Positions 11,756 through 64,000 of a DNA stretch of 64,000 nt are shown piece by piece (positions within the stretch are counted from its first letter, which is position 1; every line of letters begins with the position of its first letter). The DNA lies in the NCBI RefSeq assembly GCF_006345805.1, contig NC_043019.1, positions 30,813,360-30,877,359 on the forward strand, read 5' to 3'. A program made the translations under genes and the position numbers. This stretch comes from Octopus sinensis (taxonomy: Eukaryota). The notes beneath the pieces were generated by a model that worked only from the letters and a program-made list of their open reading frames with translations, had not been told where the DNA came from and did not search any database.

Positions 11756-12192
11756 CCTATCTATCTTTTACCCTCATGTGAGGCCAGATCAGACAGACTT
11801 GCTATATATATATACATTACTATACCCTTAATGTAGTTAGCATGACACAAAATGTGACAAGGATGATTCTTTTGAAATACTGGCACTACTCATTTTTGCC
11901 AGCTGAGTGGACTGGAGCAAAATGAAATAAAGTGTCTTGCTCAAGGACGCAATGCGATGCTAGGAATTGAACTCACAATCATGAATCACAAACCCTAACC
12001 ACTAAGCCACATGCCTTCATGTTTACATTTGTCTACACTATAATTCTACATCAAATTGTATGCCAGAAGATAAATATGATACTGGAATCTATATGATCAA
12101 GTAAGACCCTTCAAGGTGGTGCTCCAGCATGGCCCCAATCCAGTGACTGAAACAAATAAAAAAATAAAGAATAAAATAAAATAAAAACTTAC

Positions 12193-12364
12193 TGTTACGA
12201 TTGAGTACAGATTTGGTGAGCTCAGCGTTGGGTAGACGCTCTGCATATATGTTGCATGTACACCTTCCTGGGCCAACATTTTCAGTGTTTTTGTGACATT
12301 TCTATCAAGGTAATTTGCTCTGAAATGTCCTATGGCTATTAGCAACAACGGATGTCTGTCAGAA
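12193..12364 (-). CDS. Exon encoding the N-terminal part of an ENPP/type I phosphodiesterase catalytic domain (SDRHPLLLIAIGHFRANYL...MQSVYPTLSSPNLYSIVT)
   Basis: 172-nt exon with acceptor ttttattttttag and donor ACA|gtaagt. The translation aligns by eye to ENPP1/3 motifs PTLLFSLDGFRAEYL and MRPVYPTKTFPNHYSIVT. The next expected exon (GLYPESHG...) was not found in the window. Confidence 0.9.
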
Positions 12365-13587
12365 CTAAAAAATAAAATGATGTAAATTGATAACTGGAAG
12401 ATAAAGAACTAAAAGATTTTGTTACAGTGGATCTTGAAGCATATAAAGCTATAATTAACAACATGTAAATACTAGGTTGAAAAGTTCTCGTGGAGAGAAA
12501 AAATCAAAAGCTATCCATATAACAAGACCCTGCATCTCCTACAGACACAACAACCTTTGACATTTTCTGTCCAAAAATGTTTTCCAACCCAATTTTTACA
12601 TGCTGTTATTTATAGCTCTATGTGTTTCAAGATCCATTGTTCCAAAAAAAAACAAACATTATTTTATATTCTCTTTTAAGTTAATAAATACTTTTGATGT
12701 TGACATCATTATTTCAATTTTAGGTAGAGTACAATGATCTTTTGTAAGAAGAATACCTTAACTTCCATCTACCATAAAAATGTACCTCCATCCCACTCCT
12801 CAGGTTTTGTAGATTTGTGATTTGCATGACTTCCTCACTAATGCCAGTTGTGAGAAGAAAACACCCAGTATAAGCTGTAAAGTGGTTGGCACCAAGAAGG
12901 ACATCCAGCTGTAAAAACCCTGTAAAAGCAGACACTGCAGGTCGACGCAGTCCTTGGGCCCAATGAATCCTGTTAAGCTGTCCAACCCATGCCAGCATGG
13001 AACATGGACATTAAACGATGATGATGATGGTGTTGTGTAATGGTTCTACCAGTTTTCATGCGAGTTGGATGGTCATATCAAAATAAGTCAATACAATGTA
13101 AAGCTTGTTTGATGATGGAAAAAGTGGCCACTGATGTTCTGTACAGGACTTGTTTGGTTTTTCATAAGTTTCGACTGTAGGTCTGTATCAATTATGAAAA
13201 TTGCGTTTCATAGCATATTAAGTATCTAATTGTCTGAGATGAGTTCTTGTTAATACAATTAGACTGTTTTGAACTTCTAACCTCATCTACAGAGAACAAA
13301 TAACTTTTAATATTTACATATAGGCATAGGAGTGGCTGTGTGGTACATAGCTTGTTTACCAACCACATGGTTCTGGTTCCAGTTCCACTATGTGGCACCT
13401 TGGACAAATGTCTTCTACTATAGCCTCGGGCCAACCAAAGCCTTGTGAGTGGATTTGGTAGATGGAAACTGAAAGAAGCCTGTCGTATATATGTATATAT
13501 ATTTATATATATATATTGATAAAAATGGTAAGACAGCAAAAGAATGAAAGAGACCTCAATAAATTCCTCTATTTAGATATATGTATG

Positions 13588-16597: not shown

Positions 16598-17128
16598 TGT
16601 TTGTAGAGAGCAGAGGCATTGGAGGAACTTGTAAAGAACGGAGGAATTTGTAGAGAGTGGAGGCACTTGTAGAGAATGGAGGCATTTGTAGAGAGTGGAG
16701 GCACTTGTAGTGAATGGAGGCATTTGTAGTGAGTGGAAGCATTTGAAGAAAGCCGAAGCATTTGTAGAGAGTGGAGGCATTTGTAGTGAGTGGAAGCATT
16801 TGAAGAAAGCTGAAGCATTTGTAGAGAGTGGAGGCATTTGTAGAGAATAGAGGCATTTGTAGTGAGTGGAAGCATTTGAAGAAAGCTGAAGTATTTGTAG
16901 AGAGTAGATGCATTTGTAGAGAGTGGAGGCATTTGTAGTGAGTGGAAGCATTTGAAGAAAGCTGAAGCATTTGTAGAGAGTGGAGGCATTTGTAGAGAAT
17001 GGAGGCATTTGTAGTGAGTGGAAGCATTTGAAGAAAGCTGAAGTATTTGTAGAGAGTAGATGCATTTGTAGAGAGTGGAGGAACTTGTAGTAAAGAGCAA
17101 GGAAATTTGTAGAGATAAAAGCATTTGT
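16598..17128. repeat. 19-bp minisatellite with higher-order variants
   Basis: Unit GTGGAGGCATTTGTAGAGA, with variants GTGGAAGCATTTGAAGAAA and GCTGAAGCATTTGTAGAGA recurring in blocks. Confidence 0.95.
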
Positions 17129-19487: not shown

Positions 19488-20030
19488 TCGAAGGTTATAA
19501 TGGACACAGGTTCATGTGTCACACAGCTAGCTAGAGGCGATGGCCTCTTAGTGCTAATCAGTGGCAACATTTGTCCTATATTTCTGGACTGCCATATTAG
19601 CTTGGCAATAACTATTAATATCCAGTACTGCTGCTGTAGTCTCCTTTAGAGAGACTTAGAAATATTAATATTTCTATTTTTGAAAACCAGTGGATATATT
19701 CCACTGAATTTCGGTAAATAATCCTTCGAACAGATGGTTAGTAGCGACGCCTGCTGGGTTTGGATGCTCTGCATTGACAAGGGGCAAATACCCTGAATCT
19801 AGTCTGCAGATAACTGACCAGCAAGGGGAAGTGGCTGACCTCCCCTGTTCGAAGGTTATAATGGACACAGGTTCGTGTGTCACATAGCTAGCTTGAGGCG
19901 ATGGCCTCTTGGAGCTAATCAGTGGCAGCATTCGTCCTATATTTCTGGATTGCCATATTAGCTTGGCAATAACTATTAATATCCAGTACCGCTTTGGAGA
20001 GACTAAGAAATAATAATAATATTTCTGTTT
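19488..20030 (+). mobile_element. ~1.5 head-to-tail copies of a 361-bp structured hammerhead-bearing unit (retrozyme/PLE-like)
   Basis: tcgaaggttataatggacac recurs at 19488 and 19849. The unit contains a hammerhead at 19768-19810 and several hairpins. Confidence 0.7.
19768..19810 (+). ncRNA. Type I hammerhead motif with U3:A8 core
   Basis: UCUGCA-UUGACAA-GGGG(CAAAUA)CCCU-GAAU-CUAG-UC-UGCAGA. 6-bp stem I, palindromic CUAG; position 15.1 is U instead of A. Confidence 0.65.
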
Positions 20031-34734: not shown

Positions 34735-34749
34735 TACATATGTATATAT

Positions 34750-34782
<33 letters not shown>

Positions 34783-35054
34783 GTGTGTGTATGTGTGTGT
34801 ATATGTTTGTGTGTCTGTGTTTGTCCCCCTAGCATTGCTTGACAACCAATGCTGGTGTGTTTACGTTCCGTAACTTAGCGGTTTGGCAAAAGAGACCGAT
34901 AGAATAAGTACTAGGGTTACAAAGAATAAGTTCTGGGATCGATTTGCTGGACTAAAAGCGGTGCTCCAGCATGGCTGCAGTCAAATGACTGAAACAAGTA
35001 AAAGAATAAAAGAGTACACATACACACTCACACCACACACACCCACGTGTATAT

Positions 35055-35091
<37 letters not shown>

Positions 35092-35368
35092 GTGTATGTG
35101 TGTGTATATGTTTGTGTGTCTGTGTTTGTCCCCCTAGCATTGCTTGACAACCAATGCTGGTGTGTTTACGTTCCGTAACTTAGCGGTTTGGCAAAAGAGA
35201 CCGATAGAATAAGTACTAGGGTTACAAAGAATAAGTTCTGGGATCGATTTGCTGGACTAAAAGCGGTGCTCCAGCATGGCTGCAGTCAAATGACTGAAAC
35301 AAGTAAAAGAATAAAAGAGTACACATACACACTCACACCCACACACACCCACGTGTATATATATATAT
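34735..35368 (+). repeat. Recent tandem duplication (~300 bp) of a SINE 3' half plus flank
   Basis: The two copies are essentially identical outside the microsatellites. Confidence 0.9.
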
Positions 35369-35374
35369 AAAAAT

Positions 35375-48209: not shown

Positions 48210-48530
48210 CTAGATTTTCCAATTTTGAAGTAAAAATTTCTGAAAATGTGGATAACTCCTTATGGCTTCTTTCCTGGAGTTCAGGTAGCCTCCTGGCTCA
48301 TGTGAGTTCATAAGGATTATAAATTTTTCTGCTATTCTCAATTTACATAGGTTTCTAATAATTTCCACCTAATGTTAAAGGGTGTGTGATTGTCCTTTAA
48401 GCGCCATATGTATCCTGTGAGTGTCATTGTGTTGCATCTCTCCAGGACCCTGAAAGAAGATCTGTGGTTGTTCGGGCAAATTTTTAATTTGGATTCACAA
48501 TATCCGGCATTAATTTTAGTGTGTGTCCCT
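48210..48530 (-). pseudogene. Penelope-like element GIY-YIG endonuclease C-terminal relic
   Basis: AGYCESKLK..NNHRSSFR..TLTGYIWRLKDNHTPFNIRWKLLE, then a frameshift, then LCKLRIAEKFII..YLNSRKKAIRSYPHFQKFLL*. This resembles PLE endonuclease motifs (NH.SSF, T.LS.YIW.LK, C.LC..EK, LN.R.E...C.H..KFLL). Confidence 0.8.
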
Positions 48531-48540
48531 GTGTAACGAA

Positions 48541-49090
48541 TTTTTGCCAACTTAATGTGGCAGTCCCATTTTGGGGTAAACGCTACTGTTATTTAACCCC
48601 AGGAGACTATAATACACATGATCTGGGTTCTTATATTTTTGAACTGAGGAGGTTAGCACCCCCACCCAGCACAAAGCAGTATCTGTGGACCATATGATTT
48701 CAGGGTTATTTCCTTTTGTTGGCACAGAATAACTTTTCAGCTTAGATGGCGCTGCTAAACACCTGTTTGAAAATATATATAATTTTCTAAGTGACTCACA
48801 GTTACTGATCTATTAAAATAGAAAAATAGTTGTTCCTAAATCTCTCTAAGAGAGATATTCAGTAGCAGCACTTTAAAGTAACGATTTTTTACCAACCAAA
48901 TGCGGCAGTTCCATTTTGGGGCGAATGCTACTGTTGTTTAACCCCAGGAGACACTGTCTCCAGCTGGTTATATGACACATGATCTGTGTCCTTATATTTC
49001 CGAATAGGGGAGGTTAGCACCCCCCACCCAGCACAAAGCAGTATCCATGGACAATACGGTTTCAGGGTTATTTCCCTTTGTCGGCACAAA
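48541..49090 (+). mobile_element. Two copies of a ~190-bp short element (third, partial copy at ~51140-51283)
   Basis: ttttgccaac..gcagtcccattttgggg..gaggttagcaccccc..ttgtcggcac at ~48541-48727 and ~48886-49090, with short inverted ends. Confidence 0.7.
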
Positions 49091-49715
49091 AATGTTTTGT
49101 GTCTTGTAGAAGTATAACTAATTTATTGCACATAAATTTCAGCAACAAATTACTTATGTGGATTCCAAAGGGTCATATGGGCCTTGGTTAAGAAACACAG
49201 CTGTAGAGGAATGAGAAAAAATATATTGGGTTCTCACAAATTTGGAGTGCTTTGATGATTATAAATCTCCCGTATTAGGACTAACATTGGGCTAACCAAA
49301 ATCAATAAGAACAATAATAGAATGCAATGTTTTGCAGAGACTTATTTGGCCTGCCAGAGGAAGTCAGAGATTAAAGGTGATATATACAATGATAATTTTT
49401 CCACTTATTAAGCAATAATAGATTCAATCTTCAGAATACAAGCCTAGTTTATCAATCTATTAGTTGTCATTATAGTCCATTAACGAAGGCTGTCAAACAT
49501 ATATTGCTAGCTTCGATGATGAATTGAACATTTCACCTCGTTTTAAATAAATTACTCAGAATAAGTATTTGTTATTATTTATTGATAAATAATTTACTGC
49601 TGAAATTATATAAACGCACAACACACGCACACACACACACAATTTCATATATAAATATACATATATATATATATAAATAATAAGAAAATTTACTCTTGAT
49701 ATATATATATATATA

Positions 49716-50000
49716 TGCCAGCACCGCCTCGACTGGCTTCCGTGCCGGTGGCACATAAAATACACCAATCTGACCGTGGCCGTTGCCAGCCTCGCCTGGC
49801 ACCTGTGCAGGTGGCACGTAAAAAGCACCCACTACACTCACGGAGTGGTTGGCGTTAGGAAGGGCATCCAGCTGTAGAAACATTGCCAGATTAGACTGGA
49901 GCCTGGTGCAGCCTTCTGGCTTCCCAGAACCCCGGTCGAATCGTCCAACCCATGCTAGCATGGAGAACGGACGTTAAACGATGATGATGATGATGATGAT
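49716..50000 (+). mobile_element. SINE with Meta-like domain and RTE-type (GAT)n tail; copies at ~270-590-, 11345-11530+, 12850-13030+, 17640-17960-, 18730-19080-, 22860-23010+, 26375-26690-, 58920-59215-
   Basis: gtggttggcgttaggaagggcatccagctgtagaaa motif, repeated gtggcacgtaaaaagcacc units and tail ggacgttaaacgatgatgatg. Confidence 0.8.
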
Positions 50001-50002
50001 AT

Positions 50003-50830
50003 ATAAGAAATATTGAATTTCTAAATCTCTCGTAGAGACATGTACGGTGGTGGGGCGATAGAATGGTTGTATACTGTCAATCTAACAAGAACGTGACAGT
50101 AGGGGGTACACCACCGTTGTATAGTCCTAGGAGGCATCGAACGCCTCCAGACAGCTTCGACACATTTTTTCCTTGTGTCCTTATATACATATACGAAGGG
50201 GAGACAAACACCCCCGGCCGTCGAAACTGCATCTAGGGACACCGTGTTTCAGGATCATTGTCCTTCATCGGCCTAGAGTAGCAGACACCGGTCGGCTGGT
50301 GATATTTGCCTCGACTTCGTATCTGTATATATGTAAACTCAGTGAAGTTTATTCACTGGTTATCAAAATAAGAAATATTGAATTTCTAAATCTCTCGTAG
50401 AGACATGTACGGTGGTGGGGCGATAGAATGGTTGTATACTGTCAATCTAACAAGAACGTGACAGTAGGGGGTACACTACCGTTGTATAGCCCTAGGAGGC
50501 ATCGAACGCCTCCTGACAGCTTCGACACATTTTTTCCCTGTGTCCTTCACTGAGTATACATATATACAATTATGAAGTCGAGGCAAATATCACCAGCCGA
50601 CCGGTGTCTGCTACTCTAGGCCGATGAAGGACAATGATCCTGAAACACGGTGTCCCTAGATGCAGTTCCGACGGCCGGGGGTGTTTGTCTCCCCTTCGTA
50701 TATGCATATAAGGACACAGGGAAAAAATGTGTCGAAGCTGTCAGGAGGCGTTCGATGCCTCCTAGGGCTATACAACGTTGGTGTACCCCCTACTGTCACA
50801 TTCTTGTTAGATTGACAGTATACAACCATT

Positions 50831-50831
<1 letters not shown>
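50003..50831. mobile_element. 365-bp structured hammerhead-bearing unit: 1.5 tandem copies (- strand) plus an inverted copy (+ strand)
   Basis: ataagaaatattgaatttc recurs at 50003 and 50368. 50545-50831 is the reverse complement of 50061-50347, with CTT microhomology at the junction. (TA)n lies on the right. Confidence 0.85.
50615..50660 (+). ncRNA. Type I hammerhead motif with CCGAUGA core (identical copy on - strand at 50232-50277)
   Basis: UCUAGG-CCGAUGA-AGGA(CAAUGA)UCCU-GAAA-CACGGUG-UC-CCUAGA, with a GUC cleavage triplet. Confidence 0.8.
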
Positions 50832-50865
<34 letters not shown>

Positions 50866-50965
50866 TAAAACGGTAAGATAACAACAGAAAGAAAGAGACC
50901 TCAATATTATGTAAATAGAGGAAATTTATCTATAAAATAATATGTTACTTTACTCGATAGTCAAG

Positions 50966-51024
50966 ATAAAACTCTGAGTTTCAGATGCCGAAGTGGGAAT
51001 CCACAACGCCATCTCTTCGATGAT
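50966..51024 (-). ncRNA. Truncated or degenerate hammerhead motif
   Basis: UCGAAGA-GAUG..CAUC-U-GAAA-CUCAGAG-UU. Stem III matches the 32523 motif; stem I is disrupted. Confidence 0.4.
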
Positions 51025-51073: not shown

Positions 51074-51305
51074 TACATATATATTTATATATGTATATGT
51101 GTATATATATGTGTGTCTATATGTATATATATATAATGATTTTTTGCCAACCTAATGTGACAGTCCCATTTTGGGGTGAATGCTACTACTGTTTAGCCCC
51201 AGGAGACACTGACTCCAGCTGGTTATATGACACATGATTTGTGTCATATTTCCGAACAGGGAAGGTTAGCACCCCTACCCAGCATATTTATATATATATA
51301 TATGT

Positions 51306-55644: not shown

Positions 55645-55678
<34 letters not shown>

Positions 55679-56235
55679 GGATTCTTTCAGTTTCCATTTA
55701 CCAAATCCACTCACAAAGCAATTGGCTTGCTCAGGCCTGTAGTAGAAGACACATGTTGAAGGCGTCACACTGTAGGACTCAACCTGTATCTACATAGGTG
55801 GAAAGTGCAAAGCCAATTTTGTCTGGCACTTAATTTCATATCTAACATTCACACACACACACACACACACACAATAGGATTCTTTCAGTTTCCATTTACC
55901 AAATCCACTCATAAAGCAATTGGCTTGCTCAGGCCTGTAGTAGAAGACACATGTTGAAGGCGTCACACTGTAGGACTCAACCTGTATCTACATAGGTGGA
56001 AAGTGCAAAGCCAATTTTGTCTGGCACTTAATTTCATATCTAACATTCACACACACACACACACAATGGGATTCTTTCAGTTTCCATTTACCAAATCCAC
56101 TCTCAAAGCAATTGGCTTGCTCAGGCCTGTAGTAGAAAACACATTTTGAAGGCGTCACACTGTAGGACTCAACCTGTATCTACATAGGTGGAAAGCACAA
56201 AACCGATTTTGTCTGAGGCTTAATTTCATATCTAT
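55645..56235. repeat. Three tandem ~190-200-bp copies of a decayed SINE head with (CA)n spacers
   Basis: attctttcagtttccatttaccaaatccactc...acataggtggaaag repeated three times. Confidence 0.9.
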
Positions 56236-63397: not shown

Positions 63398-64000
63398 ACT
63401 AATAATTGAAAAAATAATTGAAAGAAATGATTGAAAGAAATAATTGAAAGAAATTATTGAAAGAATAATTGAAAAAATAATTGAAAGAATAATTGAAAGA
63501 AATTATTGAAAGAATAATTCAAAGAAGTAATTGAAAGAATAATTGAAAGAAATAATAGAAAAAAATAATTGAAAGAAATAATTGAAAGAATAATTGAAAG
63601 AAATTATTGAAAGAATAATTGAAAAAATAATTGAAAGAATAATTGAAAGAAATTATTGAAAGAATAATTGAAAGAAATAATTGAAAGAATAATTGAAATA
63701 AATAATTGAAAGAATAATTGAAAGAAATAATAGAAAAAAATAATTGAAAGAAATAATTGAAAGAATAATTGAAAGAAATAATTGAAAGAATAATTGAAAG
63801 AAATAATTGAAAGAATAATTGAAAGAAATTATTGAAAGAATAATTGAAAGAAGTAATTGAAAGAATAATTGAAAGAAATAATTGAAAGAAAATAGAAAAA
63901 AATAATTGAAAGAAATAATTGAAAGAATAATTGAAAGAAATTATTGAAAGAATAAGTGAAAGAAATAATTGAAAGAATAATTGAAAGAAATAATTGAAAT
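63398..64000. repeat. AT-rich 12/13-bp minisatellite running off the window end
   Basis: (AATAATTGAAAG / AAATAATTGAAAG)n. Confidence 0.95.

What the first reader, a model, noticed from the sequence alone, without database searches (positions are those of the whole stretch)
50003..50831. Young hammerhead element: 1.5 tandem copies plus an inverted copy
The copies are nearly identical, so the insertion is recent. Tandem-then-inverted geometry with 3-nt (CTT) microhomology at 50545-50547 beside (TA)n is the pattern expected of Penelope-type template switching. Identical ribozyme motifs lie on both strands (50232-50277 -, 50615-50660 +), with a near-palindromic stem III (ACAC-G-GUGU) suited to dimeric cleavage.
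Basis: partly seen in the sequence, partly recalled or inferred. Interest (0 to 1): 0.8.

Follow-up and report, generated by a model that had tools for sequence, protein, structure and literature searches.

The report
Octopus retrozyme with Penelope insertion signature
This is an ordinary, middle-aged copy of a high-copy 365-base non-coding repeat that carries a predicted self-cutting hammerhead RNA, and its family's insertions pair two fixed end points 55 bases apart, which suggests it is likely copied by a Penelope-type retrotransposon enzyme.

Summary
There is a 365-nt unit (50003-50367), a 180-nt second round and an inverted arm (50545-50834). Identical type I hammerhead motifs with a CCGA core lie on opposite strands.

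It is one of more than a thousand dispersed copies (1795 exact 19-mer matches, control 0) of a non-coding retrozyme family in what is likely an octopus genome. Arms end at two fixed sites 55 nt apart. In 87 of 89 two-armed insertions one arm uses each site. Targets are mostly (TA)n, with 9-13-nt duplications elsewhere. This is the Penelope-like 'tail' signature, so a Penelope-type RT/GIY-YIG enzyme likely mobilises it. Such elements are in the genome, but no partner sharing sequence was found.

Cleavage, circles and polymorphism are untested.

In passing: a 1.7-kb ORF1-like cassette inserts repeatedly just upstream of the hammerhead in three related families, but not in this copy.

Verdict: a new member of a known kind, with unusually clean genomic evidence on how animal retrozymes move.

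The parts
50003..50367 (-). Unit A: one full 365-nt retrozyme unit; its 3' end (U1) at 50003 is the first of the family's two fixed end sites
50368..50547 (-). Second round B (U1-180), head-to-tail with A, 5'-truncated at the inversion joint
50545..50834 (+). Inverted arm C (U345 to U56); ends at the second fixed site and so lacks the 55-nt tail
50003..50057 (-). 55-nt 'tail' between the two end sites (inferred RT start sites)
   Evidence: 106 arms start exactly at U1 and 100 exactly at U56, of 285 arms
50227..50284 (-). Type I hammerhead motif (stems I-III, CCGAUGA core, distal stem I helix); predicted cut after C50238
50608..50665 (+). Identical hammerhead motif on arm C; predicted cut after C50654
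50290..50331 (-). TATATA (50326-50331) about 25 nt upstream of an initiator-like site at U304 (50306); U304-288 is the stretch duplicated where the ORF1-like cassette inserts in other copies; empty here. Promoter role inferred.
50561..50602 (+). Same TATA/initiator-like stretch on arm C; also empty
   Evidence: sequence
50545..50547 (.). 3-nt overlap at the inversion joint
50835..50862 (.). (TA)n run, the family's usual target
   Evidence: 174 of 257 defined ends abut an alternating TA run
50863..51022 (-). Neighbour, not part of the element: 160-nt 3' piece of another high-copy family with the same two-end pattern (61-nt offset)
49706..50002 (.). Neighbour, not part of the element: very high-copy short repeat ending in (GAT)n (SINE-like; label recalled, not tested)

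Best explanation
This is a dispersed copy of a 365-nt non-coding hammerhead repeat (an animal retrozyme) that was likely inserted by a Penelope-like reverse transcriptase/GIY-YIG endonuclease acting in trans. Shown: the family's arms end at two fixed sites 55 nt apart, two-armed insertions carry one arm from each site, targets are (TA)n or AT-rich sites with 9-13-nt duplications, and arms run on head-to-tail past one unit. Inferred: the enzyme, probably as a dimer, makes staggered nicks and primes one cDNA from each nick. One starts at U1 and the other at U56. The two 5'-truncated cDNAs are then joined head-to-head, often through 1-4 nt of overlap. Inferred: the template is more than one unit long, most simply a circle made by hammerhead cleavage of a two-ribozyme parent and ligation. 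Here one cDNA ran 545 nt (A then B) and the other 290 nt (C). This copy has one sense hammerhead per strand, so it would not release a monomer by itself.
For: Family: 1879 candidates, 40 scored, the other 39 best hits at 93-98% identity. In 168 distinct insertions, 257 of 285 arms start at U1-8 or U54-63. Of 89 two-armed insertions with both starts defined, 87 pair the two sites (35 of 35 in the set anchored by a 19-mer common to both starts); 19 further pairs had an undefined start and were left out (binomial P 6e-24). Duplications of 9-13 nt occur at 15 of 23 two-armed sites not flanked on both sides by dinucleotide runs. No coding frame with a Pfam match, and the sequence upstream of U365 returns to U1. 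Published match: Penelope-like insertions form partial tandems plus an inverted 5'-truncated copy with a tail at one end (PMC8557442, PMC3846280, passages). The tail is the stretch between two internal RT start sites, the enzyme nicks AT-rich DNA on both strands and is predicted to be a dimer (PMC11167929, main text). Intact-looking 775-883-aa frames with RT and GIY-YIG are in this genome. Hammerhead: 14 of 17 pairs show double changes over 11 sequences. This includes the distal helix (4 of 4) and C3-G8/U3-A8, neither of which my descriptor demanded. The unit folds at z -5.8. Subfamily alleles agree between consecutive rounds (560 of 566) and between arms (1321 of 1341), against 68% between loci. 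Linkage is complete across the cut site. Four arms (690-901 nt) exceed the 669 nt that a linear RNA from the U304 site of a two-unit parent would allow.
Against: No autonomous partner shares sequence with the unit: none in 40 GIY-YIG loci or 25 loci of a further family, and local alignments of 3' ends of four Penelope-like families were no better than shuffles. Arm ends do not pile up at the cut site: 3 of 19 first-round ends between U200 and U330 fall at U237-240. So nothing ties cleavage to insertion, and in the one in vitro system ribozyme mutants inserted normally (PMC11167929). The monomer's best fold traps the core, with the hammerhead fold 5.4 kcal/mol higher. Only 1 of 9 predicted Xenopus retrozyme dimers cleaved in vitro (bioRxiv 10.64898/2026.07.22.740005). 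The window copy is one of 3 of 86 loci whose arms differ at two or more diagnostic sites, which a single circle does not explain. Stems I and II were demanded by the descriptor that picked the aligned sequences, so part of the covariation is built in.
Confidence: 0.85

Rival explanations
1. The copies are only 5'-truncated ends (pseudo-LTRs) of an autonomous Penelope-like element that I did not find, not an independent non-coding unit.
For: Same end anatomy, TATA/initiator spacing and ribozyme as published pLTRs (PMC3846280, passages). Searches score only the top 40-150 candidates.
Against: In 168 insertions the sequence beyond U365 returns to U1. The only shared extension found is the ORF1-like cassette, which has no RT.
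Confidence: 0.07
2. It is a SINE-like repeat moved by a LINE enzyme, with the inversion made by L1-type twin priming.
For: Head-to-head inversions with short overlaps and target duplications also mark L1 insertions (established knowledge, recalled). LINE-like cassettes with their own duplications are active in this genome.
Against: There is no poly(A) or simple-repeat 3' tail. Both arms begin at fixed internal sites, paired 87 of 89 times, and arms run through more than one unit. L1 twin priming starts the second arm at variable sites (recalled).
Confidence: 0.04
3. The structure arose at DNA level (replication template switching next to a microsatellite) or is an assembly artefact of a repeat.
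For: Public contigs could not span the locus. Arm A carries a short patch of another subfamily's alleles at U317-334.
Against: The same geometry with the same two ends recurs at 87 loci on many contigs, with different inner breakpoints and with target duplications. A, B and C each carry their own rare letters.
Confidence: 0.04

Closest known systems
Animal non-LTR retrozymes (PMC7229834; mussel units of ~350-390 bp)
   Same: Non-coding ~365-nt head-to-tail unit, one type I hammerhead per unit, palindromic short stem III, strong folding, duplications longer than 4 bp, autonomous Penelope-like elements in the same genome.
   Different: Mostly under two units long and two-armed rather than long arrays. 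The CCGA core is fixed (164 of 170 copies). Has a TATA/initiator-like stretch, although PMC7761336 says retrozymes seem to lack promoters. Circular RNA and cleavage are not shown here.
Penelope-like element pseudo-LTR insertions (PMC8557442, PMC3846280, PMC11167929)
   Same: Partial tandem plus inverted 5'-truncated copy, tail at one end only, (TA)n/AT-rich targets, duplications of about 10 nt, hammerhead in the repeat, TATA about 20-25 nt before an initiator-like motif.
   Different: No ORF. The tail is 55 nt rather than 30-40. The hammerhead has a full distal stem I rather than the minimal form. No sequence link to a partner was found.
Non-autonomous Penelope derivatives: Chlamydomonas MRC1 (PMC8557442) and Xenopus retrozymes related to pLTRs (bioRxiv 10.64898/2026.07.22.740005)
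   Same: Non-coding, head-to-tail elements proposed to use Penelope enzymes in trans.
   Different: Those links rest on sequence likeness and co-occurrence. Here the link rests on the insertion signature, and likeness to a partner is missing.
Tx1-clade and SINEU elements that target other transposons (PMC4494074), for the cassette seen in other copies
   Same: Repeated insertion at one site of another mobile element, with tandem copies separated by a target duplication.
   Different: ORF1-like frame only, no RT partner identified, so clade membership is untested. The target is a retrozyme site just downstream of a TATA-like motif, and its sequence differs between host families.

Membership tests
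Type I hammerhead ribozyme | Core C3-Y4-G5-A6-N7-G8-A9, GAAA and UH around three helices | tested here: met
   position 4 is C (CCGA), a change reported as tolerated in viroid hammerheads (PMC9608096, one passage citing earlier work)
Type I hammerhead ribozyme | Helices supported by covariation | tested here: met
   14 of 17 pairs with double changes, 0/500 shuffles; stems I and II partly built in by the descriptor; distal helix and the 3-8 pair were not
Type I hammerhead ribozyme | Match to an Rfam hammerhead model | tested here: not met
Type I hammerhead ribozyme | Site-specific self-cleavage | not testable with these tools
   monomer fold disfavoured by 5.4 kcal/mol; intermolecular stem III duplex -10.7 kcal/mol
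Non-LTR retrozyme | 150-450-nt non-coding head-to-tail unit with one type I hammerhead, GC under 50% | tested here: met
Non-LTR retrozyme | Copies with two hammerheads in tandem on one strand (needed to release a monomer) | tested here: met
   met by some family members (L008, L010, L107, L125, L126, L149); not by the window copy
Non-LTR retrozyme | Expressed as linear and circular unit-length RNA | not testable with these tools
   no RNA holder on record, contigs only
Penelope-mobilised element | Partial tandem plus inverted 5'-truncated arm, with a tail at one end | tested here: met
   87 of 89
Penelope-mobilised element | AT-rich or (TA)n target with a duplication of about 8-13 nt | tested here: met
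   174 of 257 ends, 15 of 23 sites; uninformative at the window copy (7 nt of AT repeat)
Penelope-mobilised element | Shared terminal sequence with an autonomous partner | tested here: inconclusive
   none in 65 loci from several families; only top candidates were sampled
Autonomous Penelope-like element | Single ORF with RT and GIY-YIG | tested here: not met
   no such frame in the unit or in family extensions
Tx1-clade LINE (cassette only) | ORF2 with APE endonuclease and RT placed in the Tx1 clade | not tested
   the cassette copies examined carry only the 427-465-aa frame; no ORF2 partner was searched for

The most novel reading that the evidence does not exclude
Octopus genomes hold a three-tier parasite chain. 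Penelope-like enzymes copy circular hammerhead retrozyme RNAs by obligate two-site twin priming, one subunit per start site. An ORF1-only LINE-like cassette in turn homes on the transcription start of these retrozymes by position rather than sequence. It borrows their promoter and sometimes rides along as a 2-kb protein-coding hammerhead RNA.
Probability: 0.3. Interest if true: 0.7.

Novelty: new member of a known kind. Interest (0 to 1): 0.42.

Why it matters
Which enzyme moves animal retrozymes is stated as open. PMC7761336 says the repeats show no motif that points to their partner, and the July 2026 preprint infers Penelope elements from co-occurrence and pLTR likeness. This family carries the Penelope insertion signature itself, with a near-absolute rule (87 of 89) that the two arms use different start sites. 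That gives a 365-nt protein-free template and two predicted start positions for an in vitro test of both the partner question and the dimer model of Penelope reverse transcription. The single window copy adds little by itself.

Tried and rejected
Rfam: no hammerhead match at either threshold.

Partner search: GIY-YIG loci, one family's 3' end and a more distant RT family gave no sequence link. The right-hand neighbour proved to be another short family with no RT match within 1.5 kb in 20 loci.

The idea that the U304 extension was an autonomous parent was rejected: it is an ORF1-like cassette.

The idea that cassette and retrozyme spread mainly as one chimera was rejected. Cassette distance does not track host-unit distance (r 0.00, p 0.45, 19 junctions; the three oldest hosts failed the filter). 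Two loci break inside the cassette array and a few pairs are close in both, so some hitchhiking stays possible.

Template jumping at the cut site was not supported: no pile-up of ends, and full linkage across it. An apparent directional change at U168/U171 between rounds is largely a homopolymer alignment effect.

Sequencing runs: no RNA holder listed. Four contig sets cover the family in pieces but cannot span the locus, show an empty site or rank expression.

Cassette protein: two folds failed (pLDDT 32 and 36), so no fold search was run. No convincing solved relative. Word-indexed searches gave 0 and 1 hit.

Gene context: one phosphodiesterase exon at 12100-12408 (-), and no Pfam match in 134 other frames sent, of 577 of at least 48 aa. 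Whether the element is intronic is unknown.

Earlier findings of the scan: none returned. The primary paper on the CCGA viroid variant was not held.

Full report
What is there. The window holds a 365-nt unit A (50003-50367), a second round B of its first 180 nt (50368-50547, 4 differences) and an inverted arm C (50545-50834) matching unit positions U56-345 with 12 differences. Positions U1-365 count along A on the + strand; the hammerhead reads in sense on the opposite strand of the unit. A descriptor scan found exactly two hammerhead motifs in the 64 kb, identical over 54 nt, with cores starting at 50271 (-) and 50621 (+). The predicted cut on + follows C50654. Rfam sees neither. The genome is likely an octopus: the named relatives of a protein from a linked repeat come from Octopus and Argonauta.

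It is a family. The unit has 1879 candidate places, 40 scored, the other best hits at 93-98% identity. Exact patterns give 381 matches across the cut site and 1795 near the 3' end, with 0 for reversed controls. I fetched loci by three anchors (best full units, the cut-site pattern, the 3' pattern) and one cassette-led set, giving 168 distinct insertions. The pattern-anchored loci came from the first 100 listed places of each search, so contigs C1-C6 dominate.

The ends. Of 285 arms, 132 start at U1-8 (106 exactly at U1), 125 at U54-63 (100 exactly at U56) and 28 elsewhere. Among 108 head-to-head pairs, 89 have both starts defined: 87 pair U1 with U56, one pairs U1 with U1 and one U56 with U56. 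In the set anchored on a 19-mer shared by both start types it is 35 of 35 (binomial P 6e-24 for the 89). An alternating TA run flanks 174 of 257 defined ends. Where at least one flank is not a dinucleotide run, 15 of 23 two-armed insertions show a 9-13-nt duplication, allowing a few edge bases. Inversion joints overlap by 1-4 nt in 37 of 108 and by exactly 3 nt in 8, so the CTT is ordinary.

Published match. Penelope-like elements form partial tandems with an inverted 5'-truncated copy and a 30-40-nt tail often at one end only (PMC8557442, passages; PMC3846280, passages). In the one purified system the tail is the stretch between two internal RT start sites, both strands of AT-rich DNA are nicked and extended, the protein is predicted to be a dimer, and ribozyme mutants still insert (PMC11167929, parts 1-2 of 4). 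The window copy is the common U1/U56 form.

The partner. The genome has 5029 GIY-YIG candidates (150 scored) and frames of 775-883 aa; one tested has RT and GIY-YIG matches. By my reading of the sequence, at least two such families carry minimal hammerhead-like motifs after the ORF and end at TA runs. None shared sequence with the unit in 40 loci or in 25 loci of a more distant family, and 3'-end alignments matched shuffles. The partner is therefore inferred from the signature, not identified.

The ribozyme. The core is CCGAUGA; C at position 4 stands in 164 of 170 copies, and the other core letters in 95-100% (part of the set was chosen on U229-244). A CUGA-to-CCGA change is reported as tolerated in viroid hammerheads (PMC9608096, one passage). 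Over 11 sequences from this and related families, 96.8% of cells pair and 14 of 17 pairs show double changes (0 of 500 shuffles). Stems I and II were demanded by my descriptor, but the distal stem I helix (4 of 4 pairs) and the C3-G8/U3-A8 swap (3 sequences) were not. Stem III is palindromic or nearly so in the families aligned. The monomer's best fold traps the core, 5.4 kcal/mol below the hammerhead fold, while two stem IIIs pair at -10.7 kcal/mol. This fits the dimer mode described for animal hammerheads (PMC4209133, parts 1-2 of 4). The whole unit folds at z -5.8. At this locus the two motifs face opposite ways, so a cis dimer cannot form. Cleavage is untested, and only 1 of 9 predicted Xenopus dimers cut in vitro (bioRxiv 10.64898/2026.07.22.740005, parts 1-3 of 5).

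The template. In the 3'-anchored set 19 of 100 arms run past one unit. Ends do not pile up at the cut site or at U304. Subfamily alleles stay in full linkage across the cut site and the unit joint. They match between rounds in 560 of 566 comparisons and between arms in 1321 of 1341, against 68% between loci. So both arms normally come from one template lineage and RT reads through the cut site. A circle explains this most simply, and arms of 690, 693, 694 and 901 nt exceed the 669 nt expected from a linear RNA starting at U304 of a two-unit parent. An uncleaved read-through RNA is not excluded. The window copy is an exception: it is one of 3 of 86 loci with two or more diagnostic mismatches between arms, through a patch at U317-334. 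Two RNAs, gene conversion or assembly polishing could each explain it.

Age. Within-locus divergence averages 2.4-2.5% and between-locus 6.3%. The window copy's 2.2-4.1% and its rare-letter rate (0.62% against a median of 0.67%, n 158) make it middle-aged in its family. Public contigs could not test polymorphism, structure or expression.

A parasite of the family, absent from this copy. Seven of 76 cut-site-anchored loci leave the unit at U304 and enter a 1.7-kb cassette. It has one 427-465-aa frame with a CCHC knuckle (13 of 18 aligned relatives match PF00098 at E up to 1) and resembles CCHC/ZCCHC3-type proteins by language-model features (0.91-0.93, a lead only). I read it as LINE ORF1-like (inference). 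It ends in an AATAAA motif, sits between 15-17-nt duplications and stacks in arrays. In 24 of 77 listed 3' junctions (inner array copies and some repeated loci included) a hammerhead core follows 34-40 nt later. This holds in three families whose target sequences differ, each about 25-30 nt after a TATA-like run; another cassette subfamily sits the same distance after TATA in an unrelated repeat. Cassette and host distances do not correlate, so these are mostly independent insertions, as for Tx1-type elements that target other transposons (PMC4494074, passages).

Novelty. Retrozymes of this size are known in a mollusc (PMC7229834, passages and section 14). Penelope elements are their proposed movers (PMC7761336, passages; the 2026 preprint), and non-autonomous Penelope derivatives are known (PMC8557442). 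Searches for hammerhead with octopus, retrozyme with Penelope and target duplication, pLTR with tail and twin priming and Tx1 with hammerhead listed no paper whose title or abstract start describes this family, the strict pairing of start sites in a retrozyme, or a cassette targeting one. The library lacks most subscription papers, I read no supplements, and Repbase and Dfam were not available. The finding is a new member of a known kind. Its value lies in the family-level evidence, not in this copy.

Noticed in passing
L101:2619-7922, L102, L190, L204, L205, L249, L271, L272, L276, L277, L278: A 1.7-kb ORF1-like cassette (CCHC knuckle, no RT) inserts, singly or in arrays, 34-40 nt upstream of the hammerhead core in three retrozyme families with different target sequences, each just downstream of a TATA-like run. 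237 DNA candidates and 14092 protein candidates in the genome.
   Followed up: yes
L187, L194, L195, L200, L273-L275: Another subfamily of the cassette sits about 30 nt downstream of a CCAAT/TATA stretch in an unrelated repeat; solo copies with their own duplications also occur (L184, L186).
   Followed up: partly
window 19488-19993: A 1.4-unit copy of a related ~360-nt hammerhead family with the U3-A8 core, 84% like the copy in L060; its GAAA box is decayed.
   Followed up: partly
window 48520-49100 and 51134-51285: Decayed pieces of a further relative, spaced 345-362 nt, with hammerhead remains on the - strand.
   Followed up: partly
window 50863-51022: 3' piece of another high-copy family with the same asymmetry: 16 of 19 shorter second matches stop 61 nt short; one locus shows a 299-nt tandem; no RT match nearby.
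   Followed up: partly
L052:5150-5290, L060:5060-5170, L062:4620-4850: Autonomous Penelope-like families with minimal hammerhead-like motifs after the ORF. One has the same U3-A8 core and CATG stem III as the L060 retrozyme family, so it is a candidate partner for that family.
   Followed up: partly
window 12100-12408 (-): Exon of a nucleotide pyrophosphatase/phosphodiesterase gene (PF01663, E 3e-12); upstream exons not located.
   Followed up: partly
window 50319-50336 against 50556-50573: Arms A and C carry different subfamily alleles over U317-334, unlike most loci; unexplained.
   Followed up: partly
L101:4657-7878, L274, L278: Some cassette copies show many A-to-G type changes on the sense strand (for example K to R or G, Y to C), seen in the translations; possibly RNA editing before copying; not counted.
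   Followed up: no
window 16620-17091, 34745-35369, 55652-56234, 63401-63999: Tandem arrays with periods of 19, 305, 198 and 12-13 nt.
   Followed up: no
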